The notes under the pieces were generated by a model, which was not told where the DNA came from, ran no database searches, and was given only the letters and a program-made list of their open reading frames with translations. The translations under genes and the position numbers were made by a program. Shown piece by piece: positions 1 to 59,403 of a stretch of DNA of 64,000 bases (position 1 is the stretch's first letter; every line of letters begins with the position of its first letter). Location: assembly GCF_036365525.1 (NCBI RefSeq), contig NC_090389.1, positions 38,066,973 to 38,130,972 of the forward strand, read 5' to 3'. The stretch is from Heterodontus francisci (lineage: Eukaryota).

Positions 1-3
1 AAG

Positions 4-700
4 ATGGATACCAAATTTCCCAACATGAACTGGAAGGCCATGGATATCCTGTTTAAGTTCCAACTTGTCAAACAGACAATGCAGTTATGCTTCACAGACC
101 GAGTAATTGCAGAACCAGAAAAACAGGCTGTGGAAATACTAATAGATGTTGGAAATGCAGGATTACACAGAATCAATACATCTGGCTTATTTGAAGAGGA
201 CTAGAAAGACCCCACAAAGATATGGAAAGTGCTAGAAGATCAGCTCTGATTACAAGCGTATTTTAGAATTCACCGCCTGGAATTGATGTCCTACAGGCAA
301 CAGCCACAGGAATAATTTGACCAGTTCATCAGTAGATGCTAAAGTCAGGGCAACTTCTCAGAAACTGAGCTGTCGGACCGAATAATAGAGCTGGTGATTG
401 TATTGACCGACACCCATTGAAGCATTTCAGAAAGACTTCTTGGGGAAAAAGAAAGGTCACAGCATTGATGTAGTGCTGGAAAATGGCAAGAAATATGAAG
501 CCATAGCTGGACAACACCTGCAAGCAGTAGGTGGAGCCAACAATGTCAGCACCATAACCAGGTCGAAAAGAGCAAGCAAGCTGTGTGGTAAGCGTAGTCT
601 GTCCCACTCACGCGAACTTGTATTGCATTTCTTGACCAGTGCAAGGCGTGTGGTGCAAAAGGACACTGGGCCCGCCTATGCAGGAAATCTGACTCCAACG
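4..700 (+). pseudogene. gag: Gypsy-type gag (decayed; stops and frameshifts)
   Basis: ATG at 4; Gag-like segments (RLELMSYRQQPQE*FDQFISRC); canonical CX2CX4HX4C knuckle CKACGAKGHWARLC at 640-681, preceded by a degenerate first knuckle (CGKRSLSH). Confidence 0.85.
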
Positions 701-929
701 CATGGCCAGAAGCCACTGCAGGATACAGACAAACAGAAGACAGGCACAGCAACAGGGCAACAGCAGCAAGGAAAGTGTCAGAGACCTGTGTAAACGCAAG
801 CCAATACATGAAGTCCACAGTGAAACAGACCTGAGTAAAGACTCAGCGAGTCAGAAGACGAACAGGCTTTCCACATTGTGCACCTGACACATCACGTTGA
901 TGAAGTTAAACAACTGGAATATTGCGCCA

Positions 930-1260
930 CAATGAACATCATGTGCCCAAAGAAAGCTGGCAAACATACACTCAGGGTCAAGATTGACACCGGCGCTGGT
1001 GCAAATATCCTACCAGTCTGAATGCTCAAAGATATGTACCGGAGTTGTTGGAAATCAATGATACAACCGACAACTGCCAAGTTATCGGCATATAATGAGT
1101 CACCTATCCCTTGCAGTGGCACACTGTCCATGCAATGCAGACATCGCAAGTTGGCATGGAAACCACAAACCTTCTATCTAGTAGACACGAGCGGACCAGC
1201 AGTGGCAGGACTACCAGCATGTAAGGACCTCAACATCATAACTATCCACGAGAGCATTGG
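930..1260 (+). pseudogene. Retropepsin-type aspartic protease of the LTR element
   Basis: Frame of 971 reads LRVKIDTGAGANILPV*MLKD...KLSAYNESPIPCSG...FYLVDTSGPAVAGLPACKDLNII; DTG active site and C-terminal motif typical of Gypsy protease; TGA at 1019 consistent with CpG decay. Confidence 0.9.
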
Positions 1261-1297
1261 TAAGGGGAAATCTCCACAGACCGGAACCCACTTGCAG

Positions 1298-1503
1298 ACT
1301 CTGGCCAGCATCAAATGGTAGACCCTGGAAACCCAGCAACAGCACAAGTATGCCGCGCCTTCACTTCTGCTCTCGAGAGAACCGCCAGCAACACAAAGAG
1401 CCAGAATGGACAGATACCTCTATGAAACCAAGTACTCTTCCCCTAACAAGTCCTCGACCCTGAGTCCCAGGCCTTCAGACGCGCAGGATGAGGAGAGGCA
1501 AAG
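1298..1503 (+). pseudogene. myc: Captured Myc-family sequence, part 1 (Myc box IV, NLS-like segment, acidic stretch before the basic region)
   Basis: Reads LASIKW*TLETQQQHKYAAPSLLLSREPPATQRARMD...STLSPRPSDAQDEERQ; compare c-Myc LVLKRCHVSTHQHNYAAPP...PAAKRVKLD...SPRSSDTEENVKR and N-Myc QQHNYAAPS...LSPRNSDSEDSERR. Confidence 0.9.
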
Positions 1504-3188
1504 TCATAGAGTTATACAGCACAGAAACAGACCCTTCGGCCCATCATGACTGTGCCAGCCATCAAGCACCTAACTATTCTAATCCCATTTTCCAGCACTT
1601 GGCCTGTAGCCTTGTATGCTATGGCATTTCAAGTGCTCATCTAAATACTTCTTAAATGTTGCGAGGGTTCCTGCCTCTACCACCTCTTCAGGCAGTGCGT
1701 TCCAGATTCCAACCACCCTCTGGGTGATAAAAGTTTTCCTCAAATCCCCTCTAAACCTCCTGCACCTTACCTTAAATCTATGCCCCCTGGTTATTGACTA
1801 CACTGCGAAGGGAAAAAGTTTCTTCCTATCTAAAATTATCAATGCCCCTCATAATTTTGTATACCTCAATCATATCTCCCCTCAGCTTTCTCTGCTTTAA
1901 GGAAAACAGCCCTAGCCTTTTCAGTCTCTCTTCATAGCTGAAATGCTCCAGACCAGGGAACATCCTGGTGAATCTCCTCTGCACCCTCGCCAGTGCAATC
2001 ACATCCTTCCTATAGTGTGGTGCCGAGAACTGTACACAGTACTCCAGCTGTGACCTAACTAGCGTTTTATACAGCTCCATCATAACCTCCCTGCTCTTAT
2101 ATTCTATGCCTTGGCTAATAAAGGCAAGTATCCCATATGCTTTCCTAACCACCTTATCTTCCTGTGCTGCTGCCTTCAGTGATCTATGAGCAAGTACACC
2201 AAGGTCTCTCTGACCCTCTGTACTTCCTAGAGTCCTACCATCCATTGTATATTCCCTAGCCTTGTTAGTCCTCCCAAAATGCATCACCTTACATTTCTCG
2301 GGATTAAATTTCATTTGCAACAGCTCCGCCCATCTTACCAGCCCATCTATATCGTCCTGTAATTTAAGGCTTTCCTCTTCATTATTTACGACACCACCAA
2401 TTTTCGTGTCATCTGTGAACTTACTGATTATATCTCCTATATTCACGTCTAAATCATTAATGTCCACTACAAACAGCAAGAGTCCCAGCACTGATCTCTG
2501 CGGTACACCACTGGTCACAGGCTTCCACTTGTAAAAGCAACCCTTGACTATTACCCGCTGCCTTCTGCCACGAAGCCAATTTTGGATCCAATTTGCCAAA
2601 TTGCCCTGGATCCCATGGACTCTTACCTTCCTAACGAATCTCCCATGTGGGACCTTATCAAAAGCCTTACTAAAATCCATATAGACTACATCAACTGCTT
2701 TACCCTCATCTACACATTTTGTCACCGCCTCAAAAAATTCAATCAAGTTAGTCAGACACGATCTCCCCTGACAAAGCCATGCTGACTATCCCTGATTAAT
2801 CCCTGCCTCTCCAAGTGGCGATTAATCCTGTCCCGCAGAATTTTTTCCAATAGTTTCCCAACCACTGATGTTAGACTCACTGCCTGTAAATACCTGGTTT
2901 ATCCCTGCTACCCTTCTTAAATAATGGTACCACATTCGCTGTCCTCCAGTCCTCTGGTACCTCTCCTGTGGCCAGAGAGGATTTGAAAATTTGGGTCAGA
3001 GCCCCTGCCTCCTCCCTTGCCTCACATAACAGCCTGGGATACATCTCATCTGGGTCTGTGGATTTATCCACTTTTAAGCCCGCTAAAACAGCTAATACTT
3101 CCTCCCTTTCAATGCTAATATGTTCAAGTATATCACAATCCCCCTCCCTGATCTCTACACCTACGTCGTCCTTATCCATAGTGAACAC
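1504..3188 (-). mobile_element. CR1 LINE, 5'-truncated (RT region + 3' tail), inserted into the myc sequence
   Basis: ORFs 1826-2746 (DFSKAFDKVPH, SGVPQRSVLG, KFTDD) and 2877-3236 (ANVVPLFKKG); short-repeat tail next to 1504. Confidence 0.95.
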
Positions 3189-3440
3189 AGAACACGCAAT
3201 GTCCTGAAGAGGCAGAGGAAGAATGAGTTGAAGCATTGTCTATTGGCTCTTCAAGATGAGGTGCTGGAACCTTCCAAGAATGTTTGGGGCTCAAAAGTGG
3301 TCCTTTTGAGAAAAGCAACAGAGTATGCTAGCAGGCTGAAGGCAGAGCAACAGAAACTGAATGGAGAGAGGGAGAAATCTTAGGAAGAACAGCAACAGAT
3401 GAGATGCAAATTCCCCGAGCAAGAGTTGTCAAACCACCGA
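3189..3440 (+). pseudogene. myc: Captured Myc-family sequence, part 2 (bHLH-leucine zipper)
   Basis: RTRNVLKRQRKNELKHCLLALQDEVLEPSKNVWGSKVVLLRKATEYASRLKAEQQKLNGEREK...QQQMRCK aligns without gaps to c-Myc [57 protein letters not shown]; stop/indel near 3381. Confidence 0.95.
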
Positions 3441-3559
3441 GATGATATCTCGACTTTTGAGCCTCTATATTTGTGAATTTTACAATTTCTATCCATGTGT
3501 AAATAATCTTGATGTTATCTATTTTATGTTTTTACTTTTAGCATAAGAGACCTATCTTT

Positions 3560-3573
3560 GGAAAGAAGGGGGA
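3560..3573 (+). other. Polypurine tract (plus-strand primer site)
   Basis: GGAAAGAAGGGGGA immediately 5' of the TG start of the LTR. Confidence 0.8.
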
Positions 3574-3811
3574 TGTTGTATGATTGCCTTAAAGAGTGAG
3601 ATCCCTTTAAGATCTTAGTATGCTAATGAGCTAAGTACCAGGACCTAGTCATGTGACTGCAAGTCAGGGTCACTCTGCAACTGTAACACCTGGAGGCAAG
3701 TTCTGTAAATAGTCAGATTGTACTGTATGTAATAGTTAGCTGTAAGAAACCTGTTTGAGATCTTCAACTAACTGGACTCCACACATCTCATTTATGTTGC
3801 ATCAGACAACA
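3574..3811 (+). mobile_element. 3' LTR (~238 bp)
   Basis: Starts TGTTGTATGAT, ends ATCAGACAACA (10/11 inverted match); probable decayed poly(A) signal near 3744; alternative end at 3828 (TCATTACA). Confidence 0.7.
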
Positions 3812-4469
3812 TAAAAGAACTCATTACATCTTTCTTTTTTTTGGCTGAGTAGTTTTGTGTTTTGAGTTGATAGAGTATCAAGCCACTTATCAGTTAATTT
3901 GTTTTTAAAAATTCTGTTCAACTTAAATAGCCACATTTGTAATTTTGTCCAAATTTAGTGTTAATGTATGAAATGTGCCAAGAAACCTTGAATGAGGTAG
4001 AAAAGATAAATTACTTGATCATCTTTCCACATCTATTTCTAAGTATATATATATATTTTTATCCATGAAAGAAGTTATGCCTTGAACTGATTCTCTTTAT
4101 TCGCGAGCTCCCCACCATCATCTCGTCTATCGGTGTAAGGTTCCAAGAGCCATCTTTAGATGTGAACCTGAGTGATAAACAGGCTATTTTACTGTAGGGG
4201 ATAGTACAGCTGAGCTTCATCCTGTTTTCACCATATATCCTTACATGTCCCAGTTCAGGAGCTTGGTATAATTCAGTCACATGTCATCCTTACGAACTGA
4301 GCCATCAGCAAGAGAGCTCTTCTGTCTCAGATTTTCTTCTCTCCAGTCAGTGGCCACTCTCCACTACTTCACCCAAGTAACCAATTTTCATGTTTTAGTC
4401 TAGACAGTGATTATTGACTAATCTGTCAATTATGGGGCCATCACAGGTAAGTTTGATCCTGACCTCATC

Positions 4470-5490: not shown

Positions 5491-6479
5491 CGGGTGGAGG
5501 GGGCATTATGGTGTATTGTTTGCAGGGCTGGCAGCCTTTTAAAAATGGTACCAGCACCTATCCTTCAACAGGTGACACTGTGAATGGCGTCGCCGAGGCC
5601 GCCCCACCATGTGATTGGCGGGGGCGGCCACCATGCATATGCAAAGTGCACGCCAGGCACAAGATCGCCACGGTGTGGTGGCTACCATTTTCTGCACCTT
5701 ATCCAGCCCAAGGTTACTAGCAAGCTTCTGCCATTAGAAAAGATTATAAGAAATTAAAAGAACTTGTATAAAAAAAGTTCTGTGAAAGAGTTTATAGATT
5801 GCTCACTATAGAGATAGAAATGCTGGGCTGGATTTTATGGGGCCACTTAGAACGTCTTCAGAAGTGGAGGGGGCTTTAAAATCTGAATGAAACATGTTGA
5901 ACCGGAAGTCTGGCATCTTTACATTGTTTCTGGATATAACTGATGGTGGTAAACATGGAGGACGCACCTTGCACAATGATGTGGCAGGGAGCAATTAAGG
6001 TATTTAAAAGGCCAATTAAATGGAATTTTACAGTGTATTTCTGATTTTACTAATGCCGCATGGGAACCACAGGACTTCAGAGCCTCGCCTGGTTAAAGGA
6101 GGCGGCAAGGGAGCGAGAGATCATTGCTGTTGCTCTCAGCCAGCCATTGAGAGAGTTAGCGTGCCATGCCAGGAAGGGTGGGGCACAGAGAGCATTGCCA
6201 AATGACTATAGAGTGGGGGAAAATTGCTAGCATTGCAGGGGCATTTGTTCCACAGGACCGATTCAGGAAAAGAAGATGATCATCTGGATAGAAGGCGTAG
6301 GACTAGGAGGGGTCCACCTGCCATGGGCCTCATCCACCCAGGCTTCAGGGCCTCCATTGAGGAAGAGGAGTAGCTGAGAGGGAGGGAGGTCCAGGCACCA
6401 GCGTGGGCACTTCAGCAAATTCAGGACCAGCAAGATGGTCAGCCTCAGGGTGGGCATGCCAGAGAAGGGTGCAGAGGGG

Positions 6480-7370
6480 TACATCAACAGTCTGCTGAAG
6501 AGGCTATCCCAAGGACACAGTCTACTACCCGAGGCTCAACTATCACCAGATGTCCGAGCGGCAGTGTTAGCAAAGACTGCAACTCTCCAGGGAGACCGTG
6601 ACTGATCTCTGCACCATGAGGCTGGGTGAGCTGAGACCCATGGGTGTTGCTGGACACCCAATGTCAGTGGAACTGAAGATCACCGTGGTTGTCAACTACT
6701 ATGCCTCCAGCTCTTTCCACTGGGGACATGTGTATGATCTCCCAGTCTTCAGCCCATCAGTGCATTAAGGCGATGACCAATGCCCTGTTCAAGAGGGATG
6801 GTGACTATGTGTGCTACACCACACCGATCCAGACACTCAGGTGGAGAGGATGATTGGGTTGAGGGCCATTGCTGTGTTTTCCCAAGGGCAAGGTGTCATG
6901 GACTGCACACATTTGGCCATCAAGGCTTCCATGTACCAGCCAGCAGCCTTAATCAACAGAAAGGGTTTCCACTCGCTCAATGTTCAACTGGTCTGCGACC
7001 ACCGAAAGTGGATCCTTCAGGTGTGTGCATGGTTCCTGGGAAGCAACCACAATGCCTACATACTTCAGCAGTCCCAGGTGCCATAGCTTCTCCGATCTCT
7101 TGCGTGCCTTCACGGATGGATACCGGGAGACAAGGCATACCTGCTGAAGACATGGCTGCTCACACCTATGATGAAACCATGCACAGATAGTGACGAGAGG
7201 TACAACACCTGCTATGGGTCAACCCGTGCGACCATTGAGTGGACCATAGGTCTACTGAAGATGTGGTTCAGGTGTCTTGATCGATCTGATGGAGCCTTTC
7301 AGTATTCCTCAGCGAAAGTCTCTCATATCGTGCTGGTCTGATGTGCTCTGCACAACCTGGCACTGTAAAG
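6480..7370 (+). pseudogene. Harbinger DDE transposase (HARBI1-like), disrupted
   Basis: GVMDCTHLAI, NRKGFHSLNVQLVCD, GSNHNAYIL, GDKAYLLKTWLLTP, RATIEWTIGLLKMWFRCLD, CALHNLA motifs; stops and frameshifts. Confidence 0.92.
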
Positions 7371-7849
7371 GGGGGAGATGTTGCACAATGAGGACATCAT
7401 CGGTCATGATGCCTCCTCCAATGAGGATGTGGAGAAGGTTGCTGTCCAGGTGATGCAAGGTGAGAGACCCCAGGGACCACAGGCAACATGCAAAGAGATA
7501 TGTGCAAGGGAGGTTCAGAACATGCTAATACACAGACATTTCCTTTTACCCTTATGATCTGCAGAAAGATTCCAATAAAGCCTTATCTTTATGTAGCCCT
7601 GCTGTCACCTCCTTCATATTGCACTCTATCACCCAGAAGCACAGTGGCAAGTCTTAGGAGCTGACCAAATGTGGCTTAGTCTATTGCTTTCAGCCCATTG
7701 AGGGAGTCAGGTTGTAGATGAGGTCCTGCAGGGCAGCACGAAATAGAAGGAGAAGCAACATCAGTGTGTTAGCCCTTTTATTACATGGCACAACAAATGC
7801 GATGGTTAACATCTACATTTCTATTCACCCGTGAACCCCAACTGCAGCT

Positions 7850-9650
7850 AGGTGCTCTTCCTAACTCTTTTACAAGTGCTCCTACAAGGTGCTGCCCCTG
7901 TGCCTAAAGCAGTGGTGGAGGCAGGCTGCTGATTGTGCTGTCCCATGGTTTGGGATGACCTTGACCATTGTCCTCTGGCTGCCTGAGGTCTGGAGGGTCC
8001 GGACATGCTTAAGGGCTCCTGCACATGTGCAGGACCCTCCTCTGCTATTGCAGCTATGTGAGGCGTTGGTGTATCTGACAGAGCAGATGAAGGGCCTGCC
8101 TACTCAGGAGTGCCCTGAGAGGAGCCCCCATTTGCAGAAGGCAGCGGCTCCTCCTCCCTTGCAAGTCACACTTGTACCTCCCTGATGACCTGACAAGGAC
8201 GAGGACCTGGTGGGGACTCCAGGTGCCTTGACACCCTCTTGCTTTGCCACTGCTGCATAGAGCTCATGGACAAAGCGATGGCATGCAGGTCTGCGCGCAT
8301 CTCCGGAATCCACTGAGTGGTCTGCTGGATCAGGCCCTCCATGAAGGTGGCCAATCTTTCCATGGAGAAAGCCATGTGTGCACACACCAGAAACATAGCA
8401 GCACTCATGACCTGGATGGACCCCTCCATCATCCATGCATGGTTGCGCATAGCCTCTGGAAGCTCCCCCAGATGTTCCTGCACACCTCTCTGCAGCTCCA
8501 GCGGTTACTGTTTGCTGATGACTCTACGTCATCAGCCTTTGGCTCTGCATCAGCCTGGCCTCCCACACTCCTGCAACTATCAAAGGTCTCAGCTGTCACA
8601 GCCTCCATTAGCTGCTTGGGCACATCTGTGCTGTGCTCACCAGGTTGTGAGTCCAATTCTAAGCATGAACAAATAAATACCTCCCAATGTGAGTATATCT
8701 GCTTTGGTGAAGGGTGCAGGAATGATGTGATGGTGCGTCCTCTGAGGATCCTTCGTCCTCCTCAGAGGCGGCTGGCTGGTCCCTGGTCTCTCCAGCTCTT
8801 GGCACTTCAGCATGACCCTGACCTGCATGAGAGAACCGATACATTGAAGGGTTAAGAGCTTTCAGTTTCCACATCCCAACTATCCCTGTTGTGGAGCTCT
8901 ATGTGTCCAGTGGTGGACACATGAGCATTATGCCTCACGTGTGTCAGATGCACCCTTGAGCCCCTCCACTTGTTCACTCACCCTCTTGGGTGGGCACTCC
9001 TGTTGTGCCATCAGCAATCATATGGCCGCCCTGATGCCCTGCCATTTCCAAGGCTGCCGCCTCCATGCAGATACACCACCGCTCCACTGGCCTTTGCCCT
9101 TTCCTTACTGTTGTGTGCTGTCTTCTCCAGCAAGGACAAGAAAGAACACTGTTAGCTTCCCCACAGAGACAAGCACAATGCCTATGCTGGTGGCAGCCCA
9201 GAGGTCCATGATGGGGGCAAGTGAATGCCTCCTGCATGAAGCCAATCTTGAAGGACATTGTGAGGGTCAGGGATGACAGGTGGGTGCCTCTCACCAAGAC
9301 GCAGTCATTCCTCTGACAGGATATGCTACGTCCTGACTCCTTTGCCATCTACTATGGGGTCATTCTTTCTCCACCAAACACACCCTTTTGCGTTGCCACA
9401 TACAAGGCCCAAAGGGAAAAGAGGTATGCAATACCTTGGCAGACCAAAGGAGGTCATTTGCCTGCTTGTGGCACTGTATCCAGGTTCTCTGGGTGACCCA
9501 ATGGCTGCTGGCTTCTTCTGCAATCCAGGATTGTTTGGTCAGGTGGGGCCCTCTCCTTGTCCTCTCCCTGGGGAAGAGGATTTCCTGCCTTGCCCTTGCA
9601 ACCTGCGGAGAACCTGCAGGGAAGCATCGCTGAACCATGGGGCCATATGG
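7850..9650 (-). pseudogene. Harbinger Myb/SANT-like accessory protein (spliced, decayed)
   Basis: APWFSDASLQV...RQEILFP...QSWIAEEASSHWVTQRTWIQCHKQANDL at ~9430-9650, followed by acidic/coiled segments downstream; exon bounds approximate. Confidence 0.75.
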
Positions 9651-11019
9651 GGTCCTTCCTCTGCCCTTCGGCCTGCAGCCTTCTGTTCAGCTCCTTGGCA
9701 GCAGTTAGGCAGAGGCTCTTTCAGAGCGGGGTAAGTGAATGCAGGGCTGGCAGCCCTTTAAATATAGTGCCAGAACCTGCCTCAGTGTCACCTAAAACTG
9801 CATTGCCTCCCGACTGTCCAGTCCAATTAGATGGCCCCTGCATCTCCACTGAGTTAATTGTCCGGCCACTGTCAGATCGCGTGCAGCCGGTTGCTGAACA
9901 CCAAGTGGAGGTGGCACCCACTTCTGATGCCGCTGCCGGGACCTGTGGCCTTGCCGCAAAATCCAGCCTGTCCTTTTTTTTCATTTGAGAAGGAGCTAAT
10001 AGAATGTTAATAATTATGTTAAACTCAATTTATAGCAAAGTCTGAAGTTGGGATTCTTTATTGCTTCCTGAAAACAGGAGACAGATCTATTGAGGCATAA
10101 AGTAATTTCAGTAGCTAAATAATCAATAGAAAGGTTGTTCTGTTTGTTGTCCTGTACACGTTACTAAAAGCTCAACTTGATATGAAAGCTAAAGGAAATG
10201 TTCTCAAAGGGGTAAGGAATTGTAAGAGTGATATAGAGTATGGAAACAGAGAAATCTAGAGTACAATAGACTTCAGAATAAAAGTTATGTGCTGCTTTTG
10301 CAAACTGAGCCATCAGGGAAGCTTCCAAATTGATTTTCAACAAAACTGAAGAACAACCACTTCACACTTCCACAAAACTAATTTAACATATTATGGTTTT
10401 CAAATCAGGGCAGTTTAGATTCAGAACACTTTTCCTTGTATTGAGGCTATGACATTGCACGACTCTAATCATTTTTTAAAGAATAACAGTCAAATATGTG
10501 AATTATGCACACATATGTCAATCACTTGTATTTGATGTGAATGGTCAGGGTTTTGGGCCCATGCCTGTGATGATTTTTACCTTTGAATGCAGTCATGTGA
10601 ATTTCTCATGAGACCAGGAATTCCTGTCTATTTTATGTAGCAGCTGGAATCAATTACAGCAGCCAGACTCAGATAGTAGTAACGCTAGGGAGAGAGAAGA
10701 GATGTAGTCCTTTAGGAGAGTGGGAGAGAGGGAGAAAACCTGGATCAGTACTTTGCGGAGAGAAGCCAGGAATAGTATTCTGATGGGGAGGAGGTGGGCG
10801 TGGTGCTTTGGGGATAAAGAGGAAAGAAGGCAAGATTGACATTTTGTTGGATGGGGAAGCAGGAATGAGGGGAAATTAGAGTATCAGCATGATGGTGAAG
10901 GATAGAGGCAGTTTGAATCAAGTTAGATGAGTGTCAATTTGAATTGAGGATAGAGAGGAAGAATGATTGTCATTAGACTTAAGAACAAGATCTAGAAAGA
11001 CTAAGGAGGGCTGAACTGT

Positions 11020-29819: not shown

Positions 29820-29962
29820 TAGTTCTGATGAAAGGTCATTAACCTGAAATGTTAACTGTGCTTCTCTCTCCACAGATGCTGCTAGACCTGTTGAGTATTT
29901 CCAGCACTTTCTGTTTTTATTCCAGATTTCCAACATCTGCAGTATTTTGCTTTTATTTTTGC
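29820..29962 (+). mobile_element. Short Penelope-like terminal repeat fragment
   Basis: Same unit as at 37150-37310 and 59166-59403 (CTGATGA...CCTGAAA.GTTAAC...CACAGATGCTGC). Confidence 0.6.
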
Positions 29963-41886: not shown

Positions 41887-44800
41887 TTCCCTGCTCCACT
41901 CCTGCTGCTCCTGCTGTGCTCCTCTCTCTCTCTCCACTCCTGCCGTGCTCCTCTCTCTCTCTTTCCGCTCCCGCCATGTTCCTCTCTCTCTCTCCACTCC
42001 TGCCGTGCTCCTCTCTCTCTCTTTCCGCTCCCGCCATGCTCCTCTCTCTCTCCGCTCCCGCCATGCTCCTCTCTCTCTCCGCTCCCGCCGTGCTCCTCTC
42101 TCTCTCCACTCCTGCCGTGCTCCTCTCTCTCTCTCCACTCCCGCCATGTTCCTCTCTCTCTCTCCGCTCACGCCGTGCTCCTCTCTCCCTCTTTCCGCTC
42201 CCGCCATGCTCCTCTCTCTCTCTCCGCTCCCGCCATGCTCCTCTCTCTCTCTCCGCTCCTGCCGTGCTCTTCTCTCTCTCTCCGCTCCTGCCGTGCTCCT
42301 CTCTCTCTCTCCGCTCCTGCCATACTCCTCTCTCTCTCCGCTCCTACCGTGCTCCTCTCTCTCTCTCCACTCCCGCCATGTTCCTCTCTCTCTCTCCGCT
42401 CCTGCCGTGCTCCCCTCTCTCTCTCCGCTCCTGCCGTGCTCCCCTCTCTCTCTCTCCGCTCCTGCCGTGCTCCCCTCTCTCTCTCCGCTCCTGCCGTGCT
42501 CCCCTCTCTCTCTCTCCGCTCCTACCGTGCTCCTCTCTCTCTCTCCACTCCCGCCATGTTCCTCTCTCTCTCTCCGCTCCCGCCGTGTTCCCCTCTCTCT
42601 CTCCGCTCCCGCCCTGCTCCTCTCTCTCTCTCTCTGCTCCCGCCCTGCTCCTCTCTCTCTCTCTGCTCCCGCCCTGTTCCTCTCTCTCTCTCTGCTCCCG
42701 CCCTGCTCCTCTCTCTCTCTCTGCTCACGCCGTGTTCCTCTCTCTCTCCGCTCCCGCCATGTTCCTCTCTCTCTCTGCTCCCGCCCTGCTCCTCTCTCTC
42801 TCTCCGCTCCCGCCGTGTTCCTCTCTCTCTCTCCGCTCCCGCCATGTTCCTCTCTCTCTCTCCGCTCCCGCCATGTTCCTCTCTCTCTCTCCGCCCCTGC
42901 CGTGCTCCTCTCTCTCTCTCTCCACTCCCGCCATGCTCCTCTCTCTCTCTCCGCTCCCGCCATGCTCCTCTCTCTCTCTCCGCTCCTGCCGTGCTCCTCT
43001 CTCTCTCTCCACTCCCTCCATACTCCTCTCTCTCTCTCCGCTCCCGCCATGTTCCTCTCTCTCTCTCCGCTCCCGCCGTGTTCCTCTCTCTCTCTCCGCT
43101 CCTGCCGTGCTCCTCTCTCTCTCTCCACTCCCGCCATGCTCCTCTCTCTCTCTCCACTCCCGCCATGCTCCTCTCTCTCTCTCCACTCCCGCCATGCTCC
43201 TCTCTCTCTCTCCACTCCCGCCATACTCCTCTCTCTCTCTCCGCTCCCGCCATGTTCCTCTCTCTCTCTCCGCTCCCGCCATGTTCCTCTCTCTCTCTCC
43301 GCTCCTGCTGTGCTCCTCTCTCTCTCTCCGCTCCCGCCGTGCTCCTCTCTCTCTCTCCGCTCCCGCCGTGCTCCTCTCTCTCCGCTCCCGCCGTGCTCCT
43401 CTCTCTCCGCTCCCGCCGTGCTCCTCTCTCTCCGCTCCCGCCGTGCTCCTCTCTCTCTCTCTGCTCCCGCCATGCTCCTCTCTCTCTCTCCGCTCCCGCC
43501 ATGCTCCTCTCTCTCTCTCCGCTCCCGCCATTCTTCTCTCTCTCTCTCCGCTCCTTCCGTGCTCCCCTCTCTCTCTCCACTCCCGCCATGCTGCTCTCTC
43601 CACTCCCGCCATGCTCCTCTCTCTCTCTCCGCTCCCGCCATGTTCCTCTCTCTCTCTCCGCTCCCGCCATGTTCCCCTCTCTCTCTCCGCTCCCACCGTG
43701 TTCCCCTCTCTCTCTCCGCTCCCACCGTGTTCCCCTCTCTCTCTCCGCTCCCGCCCTGCTCCTCTCTCTCTCTGCTCCCGCCCTGCTCCTCTCTCTCTCT
43801 GCTCCCGCCCTGCTCCTCTCTCTCTCTCTCTGCTCCCGCCCTGCTCCTCTCTCTCTCTCTGCTCCCGCCCTGTTCCTCTCTCTCTCTCTGCTGCCGCCCT
43901 GCTCCTCTCTCTCTCTCTGCTCCCGCCCTGCTCCTCTCTCTCTCTCTGCTCACGCCGTGTTCCTCTCTCTCTCTCTCCGCTCCCGCCATGTTCCTCTCTC
44001 TCTCTCCGCTCCCGCCATGTTCCTCTCTCTCTCTCTGCTCCCGCCCTGCTCCTCTCTCTCTCTCCGCTCCCGCCATGTTCCTCTCTCTCTCTCCGCTCCC
44101 GCCATGTCCCTCTCTCTCTCTCCGCTCCCGCCATGTCCCTCTCTCTCTCTCCGCTCCCGCCATGTTCCTCTCTCTCTCTCCGCTCCCGCCATGCTTCTCT
44201 CTCTCTCTCTGCTCCCGCCGTGCTCCTCTCTCTCTCTCCACTCCCGCCATGTTCCTCTCTCTCTCTCTGCTCCCGCCGTGCTCCACTCTCTCTTTCCGCT
44301 CCCGCCATGCTCCTCTCTCTCTGCTCCTGCCCTGCTCCTCTCTCTCTCTCCGCTCCTGCCGTGTTCCTCTCTCTCTCTCTGCTGCCGCCCTGCTCCTCTC
44401 TCTCTCTCCGCTCCTGCCGTGCTCCTCTCTCTCCGCTCCTGCCCTGCTCCTCTCTCTCTCTCCGCTGCCGCCATGTTCCTCTCTCTCTCTCTGCTCCCGC
44501 CCTGCTCCTCTCTCTCTCTCCGCTCCCGCCATGTTCCTCTCTCTCTCTCCGCTCCCGCCATGTTCCTCTCTCTCTCTCCGCTCCCGCCATGTTCCTCTCT
44601 CTCTCTCCGCTCCCGCCATGCTTCTCTCTCTCTCTCTGCTCCCGCCGTGCTCCTCTCTCTCTCTCCACTCCCGCCATGTTCCTCTCTCTCTCTCTGCTCC
44701 CGCCGTGCTCCACTCTCTCTTTCCGCTCCCGCCATGCTCCTCTCTCTCTTTCCGCTCCCGCCATGCTCCTCTCTCTCTGCTCCTGCCCTGCTCCTCTCTC

Positions 44801-45500
44801 TCTCTCCGCTCCTGCCGTGCTCCTCTCTCTCCGCTCCCGCCGTGCTCCTCTCTCTCCGCTCCCGCCGTGCTCCTCTCTCTCCGCTCCCGCCGTGCTCCTC
44901 TCTCTCCGCTCCCGCCGTGCTCCTCTCTCTCCGCTCCCGCCGTGCTCCTCTCTCTCTCTCCGCTCCCGCCGTGCTCCTCTCTCTCTCTCCGCTCCCGCCG
45001 TGCTCCTCTCTCTCTCTCCGCTCCCGCCATGCTTCTCTCTCTCTCTCCGCTCCTTCCGTGCTCCCCTCTCTCTCTCCACTCCCGCCATGCTCCTCTCTCC
45101 GCTCCCGCCATGTTCCTCTCTCTCTCTCCGCTCCCGCCGTGTTCCCCTCTCTCTCTCCGCTCCCGCCGTGTTCCCCTCTCTCTCTCTGCTCCCGCCCTGC
45201 TCCTCTCTCTCTCTGCTCCCGCCCTGCTCCTCTCTCTCTCTCTGCTCCCGCCCTGCTCCTCTCTCTCTCTCTCTGCTCCCGCCCTGCTCCTCTCTCTCTC
45301 TCTGCTCCCGCCCTGTTCCTCTCTCTCTCTCTGCTCCCGCCCTGCTCCTCTCTCTCTCTCTGCTCCCGCCCTGCTCCTCTCTCTCTCTCCGCTCCTCCTG
45401 TGCTCCTCAATTTCTCGCTCTGTCTCTGTCTCCAGTCTCTGACTCTGTGCTTTTGCCGCACTTTTTTATCCTCCACTCCTGCCGTGCTCCTCTCTCTCTC
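41887..45500. repeat. Minisatellite, ~25-33 bp unit CCGCTCCCGCCATGCTC(CT)n, >100 copies
   Basis: Directly visible tandem array; explains the >1000-aa low-complexity ORFs on both strands. Confidence 0.98.
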
Positions 45501-59165: not shown

Positions 59166-59403
59166 TGAAATAAAAACAGAAAGTGCTGGAAATACTCAGC
59201 AGGTCTGGCAGCATCTGTGGAGAGAGAAGCAGAGTTAACGTTTCAGTTCTGTGACCTTTCATCCAGTTCTGATGAAGGGTCACTGACCTGAAACGTTAAC
59301 TGTACTTCTCTCTCCACAGATGCTGCCAGACCTGCTGAGTATTTCCAGCACTTTCTGTTTTTATTTCAGATTTCCAGCATCTGCAGTAGTTTGCTTTTAT
59401 TTT
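59166..59403. mobile_element. Penelope-like palindromic element (~100-bp inverted arms) with hammerhead-like core
   Basis: Arms 59166-59264 and 59269-59368 are near-perfect reverse complements; CTGATGA-hairpin-GAAAC at 59269-59294. Confidence 0.7.

What the first reader, a model, noticed from the sequence alone, without database searches (positions are those of the whole stretch)
4..3811. LTR retrotransposon that has transduced the Myc proto-oncogene (v-myc-like architecture)
Seen: gag (CCHC knuckle 640-681), protease (DTGA ~986), then Myc box IV (QQQHKYAAPS), an NLS-like PATQRARMD, SPRPSDAQDEE, a complete bHLH-ZIP, a PPT and an LTR. Known: oncogene capture at the expense of replicative genes defines acutely transforming retroviruses such as avian MC29 (gag-myc); I know of no equivalent in a Ty3/Gypsy element. 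Inference: this is a germline-fixed, myc-transducing Gypsy-like family in a probable cartilaginous fish.
Basis: partly seen in the sequence, partly recalled or inferred. Interest (0 to 1): 0.96.

Follow-up and report, generated by a model that had tools for sequence, protein, structure and literature searches.

The report
Shark retrotransposon carrying a Myc fragment
A jumping gene in a horn-shark-like genome swallowed the back two-thirds of a Myc-family growth gene, spread it to hundreds, probably thousands, of places and then decayed; the cargo lacks the parts that make Myc an oncogene.

Summary
Window 1-3828 is one decayed copy of a large, non-autonomous Ty3/Gypsy-type family: LTR-PBS-gag-protease-myc-pol tail-PPT-LTR, about 3.1 kb, with 5-bp target duplications; a LINE later split this copy's myc. 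The 5' LTR lies 1 kb upstream of the window. The donor is the host's single mych gene, not c-myc. Long copies cross its exon junction without the 1.7-kb intron, so spliced mRNA was captured, at microhomologies, in place of RT/RNase H/integrase core. The myc DNA draws 2,772 first-look candidates in the genome (a pol-bearing sister: 2,093), and the family is in three coded organisms. LTR pairs differ by about 10%. The v-myc reading fails in function: the transactivation domain was never captured, 21 of 23 copies lack the E-box-reading glutamate, and shared variants show purifying selection on gag-pro (p=3e-5) but not on myc (p=0.57), though the frame stayed open. Best reading: LTR-mediated mRNA capture, a known mechanism, amplified far beyond the cases I read (1-9 copies), the Myc part a passenger. 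No description found in ten literature searches.

The parts
1..837 (+). gag remnant (stops and a frameshift; CCHC knuckle 637-687). 5' LTR, PBS and leader lie upstream of the window (G000:C19 about 38065994-38066972)
   Evidence: tblastn of Gag-Pol relatives over window 10-771 and 410-1276
838..1251 (+). aspartic protease region (catalytic motif from 986; one in-frame stop)
   Evidence: 84.5% DNA identity to pol-bearing sister L044
1252..1503 (+). captured mych exon-3 segment, first part (Myc box IV region), fused in frame to protease; short junction class B
1504..3188 (-). 5'-truncated CR1-type LINE inserted later into this copy only
3189..3412 (+). captured mych bHLH-leucine zipper, lacking the last 8 host codons; base-reading His and Glu positions changed; stop at 3381
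3413..3559 (+). remnant of the pol C-terminal tail (in another frame than myc) and 3' untranslated region
   Evidence: (0 of 100 shuffles reach the score against Gag-Pol C-termini)
3560..3573 (+). polypurine tract
3574..3828 (+). 3' LTR, TG...CA, K2P 0.109 from its 5' LTR
3829..3833 (+). right copy of the 5-bp target-site duplication (4 of 5 match the left copy)

Best explanation
A Ty3/Gypsy-type LTR retrotransposon co-packaged a spliced mych mRNA in the germline of a horn-shark ancestor. Reverse transcriptase switched template at a short microhomology just before the RT domain, copied the 3' two-thirds of the mych coding region, and switched back into the integrase tail. The product (LTRs, PBS, gag, protease, Myc segment, PPT) kept all cis signals and its own Gag-protease, borrowed RT and integrase in trans from the pol-bearing parent family, and was amplified to hundreds and probably a few thousand copies, shedding sequence by further microhomology deletions. 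The Myc part rode as a passenger in an open frame: no transactivation domain from the start, and E-box reading lost early in the lineage that dominates my sample. All copies seen have since decayed. Shown: structure, donor, spliced capture, junction microhomology, multi-copy spread, decay. Inferred: template switching, trans-mobilisation, passenger status.
For: Structure: 9 of 19 other copies have both full LTRs, 3 a partial 5' LTR, 14 gag, 19 the myc pieces side by side; TSD perfect in 4 of 9 readable elements and 4 of 5 in another 4; no RT DNA in 20 of 20 regions. Donor: P0007 (labelled mych) matches this genome at 100% in two exons 1,704 nt apart; element proteins fall in the mych clade 100/100. 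Spliced: L035, L045, L046 read across the exon junction, L030 and L047 lack the intron too. Junctions: four classes, each with microhomology and in frame. Parent: L044/L048 shares LTR, leader, gag, protease at 76-88% and goes on into RT. Selection: nonsynonymous/synonymous ratio of shared versus private variants 0.80 vs 2.28 in gag+pro (p=3e-5), 2.0 vs 2.45 in myc (p=0.57). Mechanism matches PMC5131818 section 9.
Against: Some signs of constraint on the myc part: three junction classes picked by DNA alone are all in frame (1/27 by chance); 0 shared against 24 private frameshifts in myc versus 10 and 8 in the LTR (p=3e-5; 4e-4 after dropping three common events); copy-to-copy dN/dS 0.54 by a method that transition bias lowers and 0-fold/4-fold ratio 0.70, interval 0.53-1.05. 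The two changes at base-reading residues are more than random placement predicts (p about 0.0015 if both counted, 0.057 if only Glu; post hoc). Only 23 copies were read, picked by similarity, not at random. The one pol-bearing sister read lacks RNase H and integrase, so a fully autonomous helper was not seen. Gag-pro variants were scored against one diverged sister copy, myc against the host gene, so the two tests are not strictly alike.
Confidence: 0.7

Rival explanations
1. The Myc segment was functional cargo. Released from or attached to Gag-protease, a Myc without transactivation domain and later without E-box reading would bind Max and act as a dominant-negative (Omomyc- or Id-like), or would supply a nuclear signal and dimerising zipper to the particle, and this helped the family outgrow its parent.
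For: Frame kept at all four 5' junctions and free of shared frameshifts; earliest-form copies L046, L047 keep His and Glu, later forms lose Glu and then His while much of the HLH-zipper stays; myc-bearing candidates (2,772) are no fewer than RT-bearing ones (2,093).
Against: No deficit of shared amino-acid changes in myc; successive deletions removed Myc box IIIb and more, and those forms dominate the sample (14 of 20 are the short class B); an open frame can be kept for translation or RNA stability alone (inference); the low host-to-element dN/dS of 0.33 includes the host gene's own synonymous change.
Confidence: 0.22
2. It is an endogenised, once infectious, acutely transforming retrovirus like avian MC29 (gag-myc).
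For: Same outline: gag-oncogene fusion at the cost of pol.
Against: Sister RT is nearest caulimovirus and Ty3 RT (E 5e-11, 4e-9) before foamy virus RT (1e-5); nearest gag-pro relatives are single-frame Gag-Pol of sea urchin, bivalve and ribbon worm; pol tail runs straight into PPT and LTR, no env; Myc boxes I/II absent.
Confidence: 0.03
3. A LINE-made processed mych pseudogene landed in a dead LTR element, or the join is an assembly artefact.
For: The genome is rich in LINEs; one sits inside this copy.
Against: Same chimera at many dispersed places with different TSDs; both myc ends lie inside the coding region with no poly(A) and no 3' UTR; contigs of other runs bridge the junctions.
Confidence: 0.01

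Closest known systems
LTR-mediated retroposition (Tan et al. 2016, PMC5131818; abstract and sections 6, 9 read), including maize Bs1
   Same: Partial, intron-less mRNA between LTR-element sequences, microhomology at both switch points, in-frame sense fusion, secondary retroposition as a non-autonomous element.
   Different: Bs1 has one to five copies per Zea species and the animal cases there are few; here hundreds to thousands of copies, nested deletion subfamilies, a Myc-family cargo, a shark.
Crocodilian ERVs CrocERV29 (KIT ligand) and CrocERV31 (nectin3) (PMC4299795; passages read)
   Same: Germline-fixed vertebrate LTR elements that captured a spliced growth-related host mRNA and multiplied.
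   Different: Those are retroviruses, 9 and 6 copies, whole ORFs under purifying selection; this is Gypsy-type, the cargo is a fragment and shows no amino-acid selection.
Avian MC29 / MH2 and feline myc-transducing retroviruses (structure recalled; v-myc mentioned in passages of PMC7226237 and PMC13297096)
   Same: gag-myc fusion at the cost of replication genes; dependence on a helper.
   Different: Exogenous, somatic, c-myc with transactivation domain and intact basic region (recalled). Here mych, no Myc boxes I/II, base-reading residues changed, no env, germline.
Mag/SURL-like Ty3/Gypsy elements of marine invertebrates (clade name recalled, not tested); proteins P0016 Lytechinus, P0035 Solemya, P0032 Lineus
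   Same: Single gag-pol frame, double Cys-His knuckle, PR-RT-RNase H-IN order, same C-terminal motif.
   Different: RT, RNase H and integrase core replaced by Myc.

Membership tests
Ty3/Gypsy LTR retrotransposon | Two direct LTRs with TG...CA ends, PBS, PPT, short TSD | tested here: met
   PBS starts TGG right after the 5' LTR in most copies (decayed in the window's copy); its tRNA-Leu identity is recalled, not tested
Ty3/Gypsy LTR retrotransposon | pol order PR-RT-RNase H-IN | tested here: inconclusive
   Met in the nearest full-length relatives and consistent with the integrase-tail remnant at the 3' end; the one sister read in this genome has PR-RT only
Ty3/Gypsy LTR retrotransposon | RT groups with Metaviridae | tested here: inconclusive
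   Nearest solved RTs are caulimovirus and Ty3, then foamy virus; no labelled RT tree; no BEL/Pao or Copia Pfam families in 22 proteins scanned
LTR-mediated retrocopy (Tan et al. 2016) | Intron-less partial mRNA inside LTR-element sequence | tested here: met
LTR-mediated retrocopy (Tan et al. 2016) | Microhomology at switch points, no poly(A) or TSD round the cargo | tested here: met
   5' junctions; ends inside the coding region; the parent's sequence at the 3' switch point was not available
LTR-mediated retrocopy (Tan et al. 2016) | Transcribed from the LTR | tested here: inconclusive
   Runs only guessed to be RNA hold contigs of the family
Acutely transforming myc retrovirus | Retroviridae backbone with env in the helper | tested here: not met
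Acutely transforming myc retrovirus | Myc with transactivation domain and intact E-box-binding basic region | tested here: not met
   N-terminal search finds only the host gene and one paralogue; Glu kept in 2 of 23 copies
Acutely transforming myc retrovirus | Transforms cells | not testable with these tools
   -
mych (Myc paralogue) origin of the cargo | Nests in the mych clade, nearest the host's own gene | tested here: met
   mych clade 100/100, host plus element 82/94; unresolved in a smaller tree, alternative p-AU 0.044, element follows the host at 9 of 14 host-specific columns

The most novel reading that the evidence does not exclude
The family spread because of its cargo: it made a Gag-protease-Myc polyprotein whose Myc part, stripped of transactivation and then of E-box reading, acted on the host's Myc/Max network in the germline, or gave the particle a nuclear-import and dimerising module. 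That would be a transposon that turned a captured proto-oncogene into a tool, in hundreds to thousands of germline copies.
Probability: 0.2. Interest if true: 0.93.

Novelty: new variant of a known kind. Interest (0 to 1): 0.8.

Why it matters
It is a germline fossil record of oncogene-style transduction by a non-retroviral LTR element, with the intermediates preserved: the longest form with an intact DNA-binding region, then loss of the base-reading residues, then nested deletions. That makes it testable on hundreds of copies whether a captured proto-oncogene is selected for, neutral or disarmed as an element spreads. It may be among the most amplified host-gene captures by an LTR element in a vertebrate (my comparison rests on two papers). 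In practice, these copies are mis-annotated: RefSeq models labelled 'N-myc-like' or 'myc-like' and one SLC2A10 model in H. francisci are element copies, which would fake a Myc family expansion in shark cancer-genomics work.

Tried and rejected
Ten literature searches listed no paper on this element; the library lacks most subscription papers, and Repbase, Dfam and GyDB could not be searched, so a deposited consensus may exist. No supplements were read; those of PMC5131818 list retrocopies and could bear on the copy-number comparison. Three look-ups in this scan's earlier findings were empty. No RNA holder listed on record; depth is not used as expression evidence. A longer-protein search with the gag model found 2 hits and no myc fusion outside H. 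francisci labels (weak by the tool's own note). The host-to-element dN/dS of 0.33 was set aside as evidence of selection because the host branch contributes the synonymous change. The P value printed (0.0007) was set up wrongly; one search has the corrected values. The pedigree rate of 7e-10 per generation (PMC10587355, passages) gives about 7e7 generations for 10% LTR divergence (my arithmetic), which I do not turn into years. Folding and complex prediction were not run: a Myc-Max pair would pass by likeness to solved structures.

Full report
Observation. The window opens inside a decayed gag frame with a Cys-His knuckle at 637-687, followed by a protease region with its catalytic motif at 986. 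From 1252 the same frame continues in Myc-like sequence, is cut at 1504-3188 by an antisense LINE (RVT_1 E 5e-16), and resumes with a bHLH-zipper whose best solved relative is human Myc (E 3e-13; Max 0.057). A polypurine tract (3560-3573) and an LTR (3574-3828, TG...CA) follow. The matching 5' LTR lies 978-725 nt upstream of the window, K2P 0.109 from the 3' LTR, with a 4-of-5 target duplication.

Host and donor. The window is in a 6.0-Gb genome. A protein labelled 'myelocytomatosis oncogene homolog [Heterodontus francisci]' (P0007, mych) matches this genome at 100% in two coding exons on C16, 1,704 nt apart. The window's myc pieces are 89% and 86% identical to its last exon. In a 27-protein tree, six gene models made on element copies fall in the mych clade (100/100), next to the host gene (82/94). 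In a 16-protein tree without c-Myc outgroups that grouping is unresolved; holding the five galeomorph host genes together is weakly rejected (p-AU 0.044), and the element follows the host at 9 of 14 host-specific columns, other sharks at 3. Capture therefore most likely fell on the Heterodontus lineage. Zebrafish mych mRNA is maternal (PMC2323570, passages), which would put the donor RNA in the germline; this is inference for sharks.

A family. The bHLH-PPT-LTR DNA gave 40 of 40 scored matches at 85-87% (the window's own 100%) on many contigs, from 6,571 candidates; the bHLH alone 2,772 candidates, the tail after it 2,600, a long-form protein 172 matches from 131 scored. Candidates are not copy numbers. 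I read the 20 best with about 8 kb upstream: of the 19 others, 9 have both full LTRs, 3 a partial 5' LTR, 7 none in range; 14 have gag; all 19 have the two myc pieces side by side; 6 of the 10 two-LTR elements are 3.0-3.3 kb; none of the 20 holds RT DNA. Target duplications of 5 bp are perfect in 4 of 9 readable elements, 4 of 5 in four, absent in one. Ten LTR pairs differ by K2P 0.071-0.138, mean 0.103. Three coded organisms hold the protease-myc stretch; laid on copy L035, four runs from the three cover gag, protease, myc and LTR, three bridge a long-form 5' junction with at least 31 letters a side, and a contig of organism C spans the myc-to-tail junction. Organism A may be the source of the assembly.

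Parent. A sea-urchin Gag-Pol finds many gag-protease-RT copies in the genome (87 matches). One, L044/L048, shares LTR, leader, gag and protease with the myc family at 76-88%; its RT is nearest caulimovirus and Ty3 RT; its RT DNA draws 2,093 candidates. It lacks RNase H and integrase itself. The nearest full-length relatives are single-frame Gag-PR-RT-RNase H-IN proteins, the named ones from sea urchin, bivalve and ribbon worm.

How the capture happened. The longest copies (L045-L047) leave the parent just before the RT domain and enter mych at about codon 131, across a roughly 12-nt imperfect microhomology, in frame. They and L030, L035 lack the host intron; L035, L045 and L046 read exactly across the exon junction. 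The host match ends 25 nt before the host stop; in L046 and L047 the frame runs on into sequence like the integrase tail (0 and 24 of 100 shuffles reach the scores of L047 and L046), and the window keeps only the last pol codons, in another frame (0 of 100). Shorter 5' junctions are deletions at further microhomologies: class A (2 of 20; 8 of 9 nt), B (14 of 20, the window; 2-3 nt), C (2 of 20; 6 nt); two copies are truncated. All tested are in frame. This is the double template switch of Tan et al. 2016 (PMC5131818, section 9) followed by repeated retrotransposition.

What the cargo can do. The N-terminal 121 residues of mych, with Myc boxes I and II by my recall of the motifs, match only the host gene and one paralogue (2 matches from 21 candidates, all scored), so the transactivation domain (PMC7226237, passages) was not captured. 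His359, Glu363 and Arg367 read the E-box in human Myc (PMC10437117, passage). His and Glu are present in 18 of 18 host proteins whose motif was printed (three MYCN/L-Myc rows and one element model were not). Glu is kept in 2 of 23 element copies, the two longest at both ends; among the 20 first copies His is kept in 2 of 19. The derived forms group apart from the longest ones with 86% support. Selection: private variants give the neutral yardstick (nonsynonymous/synonymous 2.3-2.5). Variants shared by three or more copies give 0.80 in gag+pro (p=3e-5; without CpG sites 0.77, p=8e-4) but 2.0 in myc (p=0.57; 2.75, p=1). The 0-fold/4-fold ratio is 0.57 (0.41-0.77) for protease, 0.75 (0.60-0.96) for gag, 0.70 (0.53-1.05) for myc. 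Against a pure passenger: no frameshift in myc is shared between copies (0 shared, 24 private; LTR 10 and 8), and junctions stay in frame. My reading is that replicating lineages needed Gag-protease and an open frame to the end, not Myc's residues. Every one of the 20 copies is about 9-13% from the host gene and 13 of 20 carry stops in the myc part.

Verdict. Real, and a striking instance of a known mechanism. It works like a helper-dependent transducing retrovirus at the level of genome structure, but it fails the membership tests for a transforming myc virus, and it passes those for an LTR-mediated retrocopy turned non-autonomous family. What is new, as far as ten searches of an incomplete library show, is the cargo (a Myc paralogue), the host (a shark), the scale (the cases read have 1-9 copies: PMC5131818, PMC4299795) and the preserved series in which the DNA-reading residues were lost. 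Limits: 23 copies read, chosen by similarity; no complete helper seen; expression not shown; no absolute date; TE databases not searched.

Noticed in passing
RefSeq-labelled proteins P0006, P0008, P0010, P0011, P0185, P0186, P0009: Gene models named myc-like or N-myc-like, and one SLC2A10 model with gag and Myc bHLH at its N-terminus, are predictions on element copies (protease or gag residues run into the Myc part in those read).
   Followed up: partly
L044 and L048 (G000:C23 about 40187560-40191100, minus): The pol-bearing sister copy is itself deleted: RT runs into the 3' UTR and LTR without RNase H or integrase. RT-only derivatives may be another large subfamily (2,093 candidates for its RT DNA).
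   Followed up: partly
L033, L034, L040: A short duplication of the LTR end plus the first PBS bases follows the LTR, in L033 and L040 also at the 3' LTR, as expected from a strand-transfer error inherited by a sublineage.
   Followed up: no
L035:7604-8035, run X7: One contig of depth about 500 joins protease to myc at a junction not among the four classes; the run is only guessed to be RNA.
   Followed up: no
L042 (G000:C5:179848609-179851962): A second two-exon Myc paralogue, 41-53% identical to mych; not identified further.
   Followed up: no
window about 5900-9990: GC-richer stretch with ORF pieces that look like a PIF/Harbinger transposase (6805-7341); recalled resemblance, not tested.
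   Followed up: no
window 41917-45395: Tandem array of a 29-nt pyrimidine-rich unit, about 122 copies, open in several frames.
   Followed up: no
window 59166-59368: 98-nt inverted repeat, 95% complementary, 7 nt between arms; related to a repeat at 29827 and 37152; probably two SINE/LINE ends head to head.
   Followed up: no
window 11990-40000: Many further decayed LINE copies; no ORF of 130 aa or more outside repeats looked to me like a host exon (not scanned against Pfam).
   Followed up: partly
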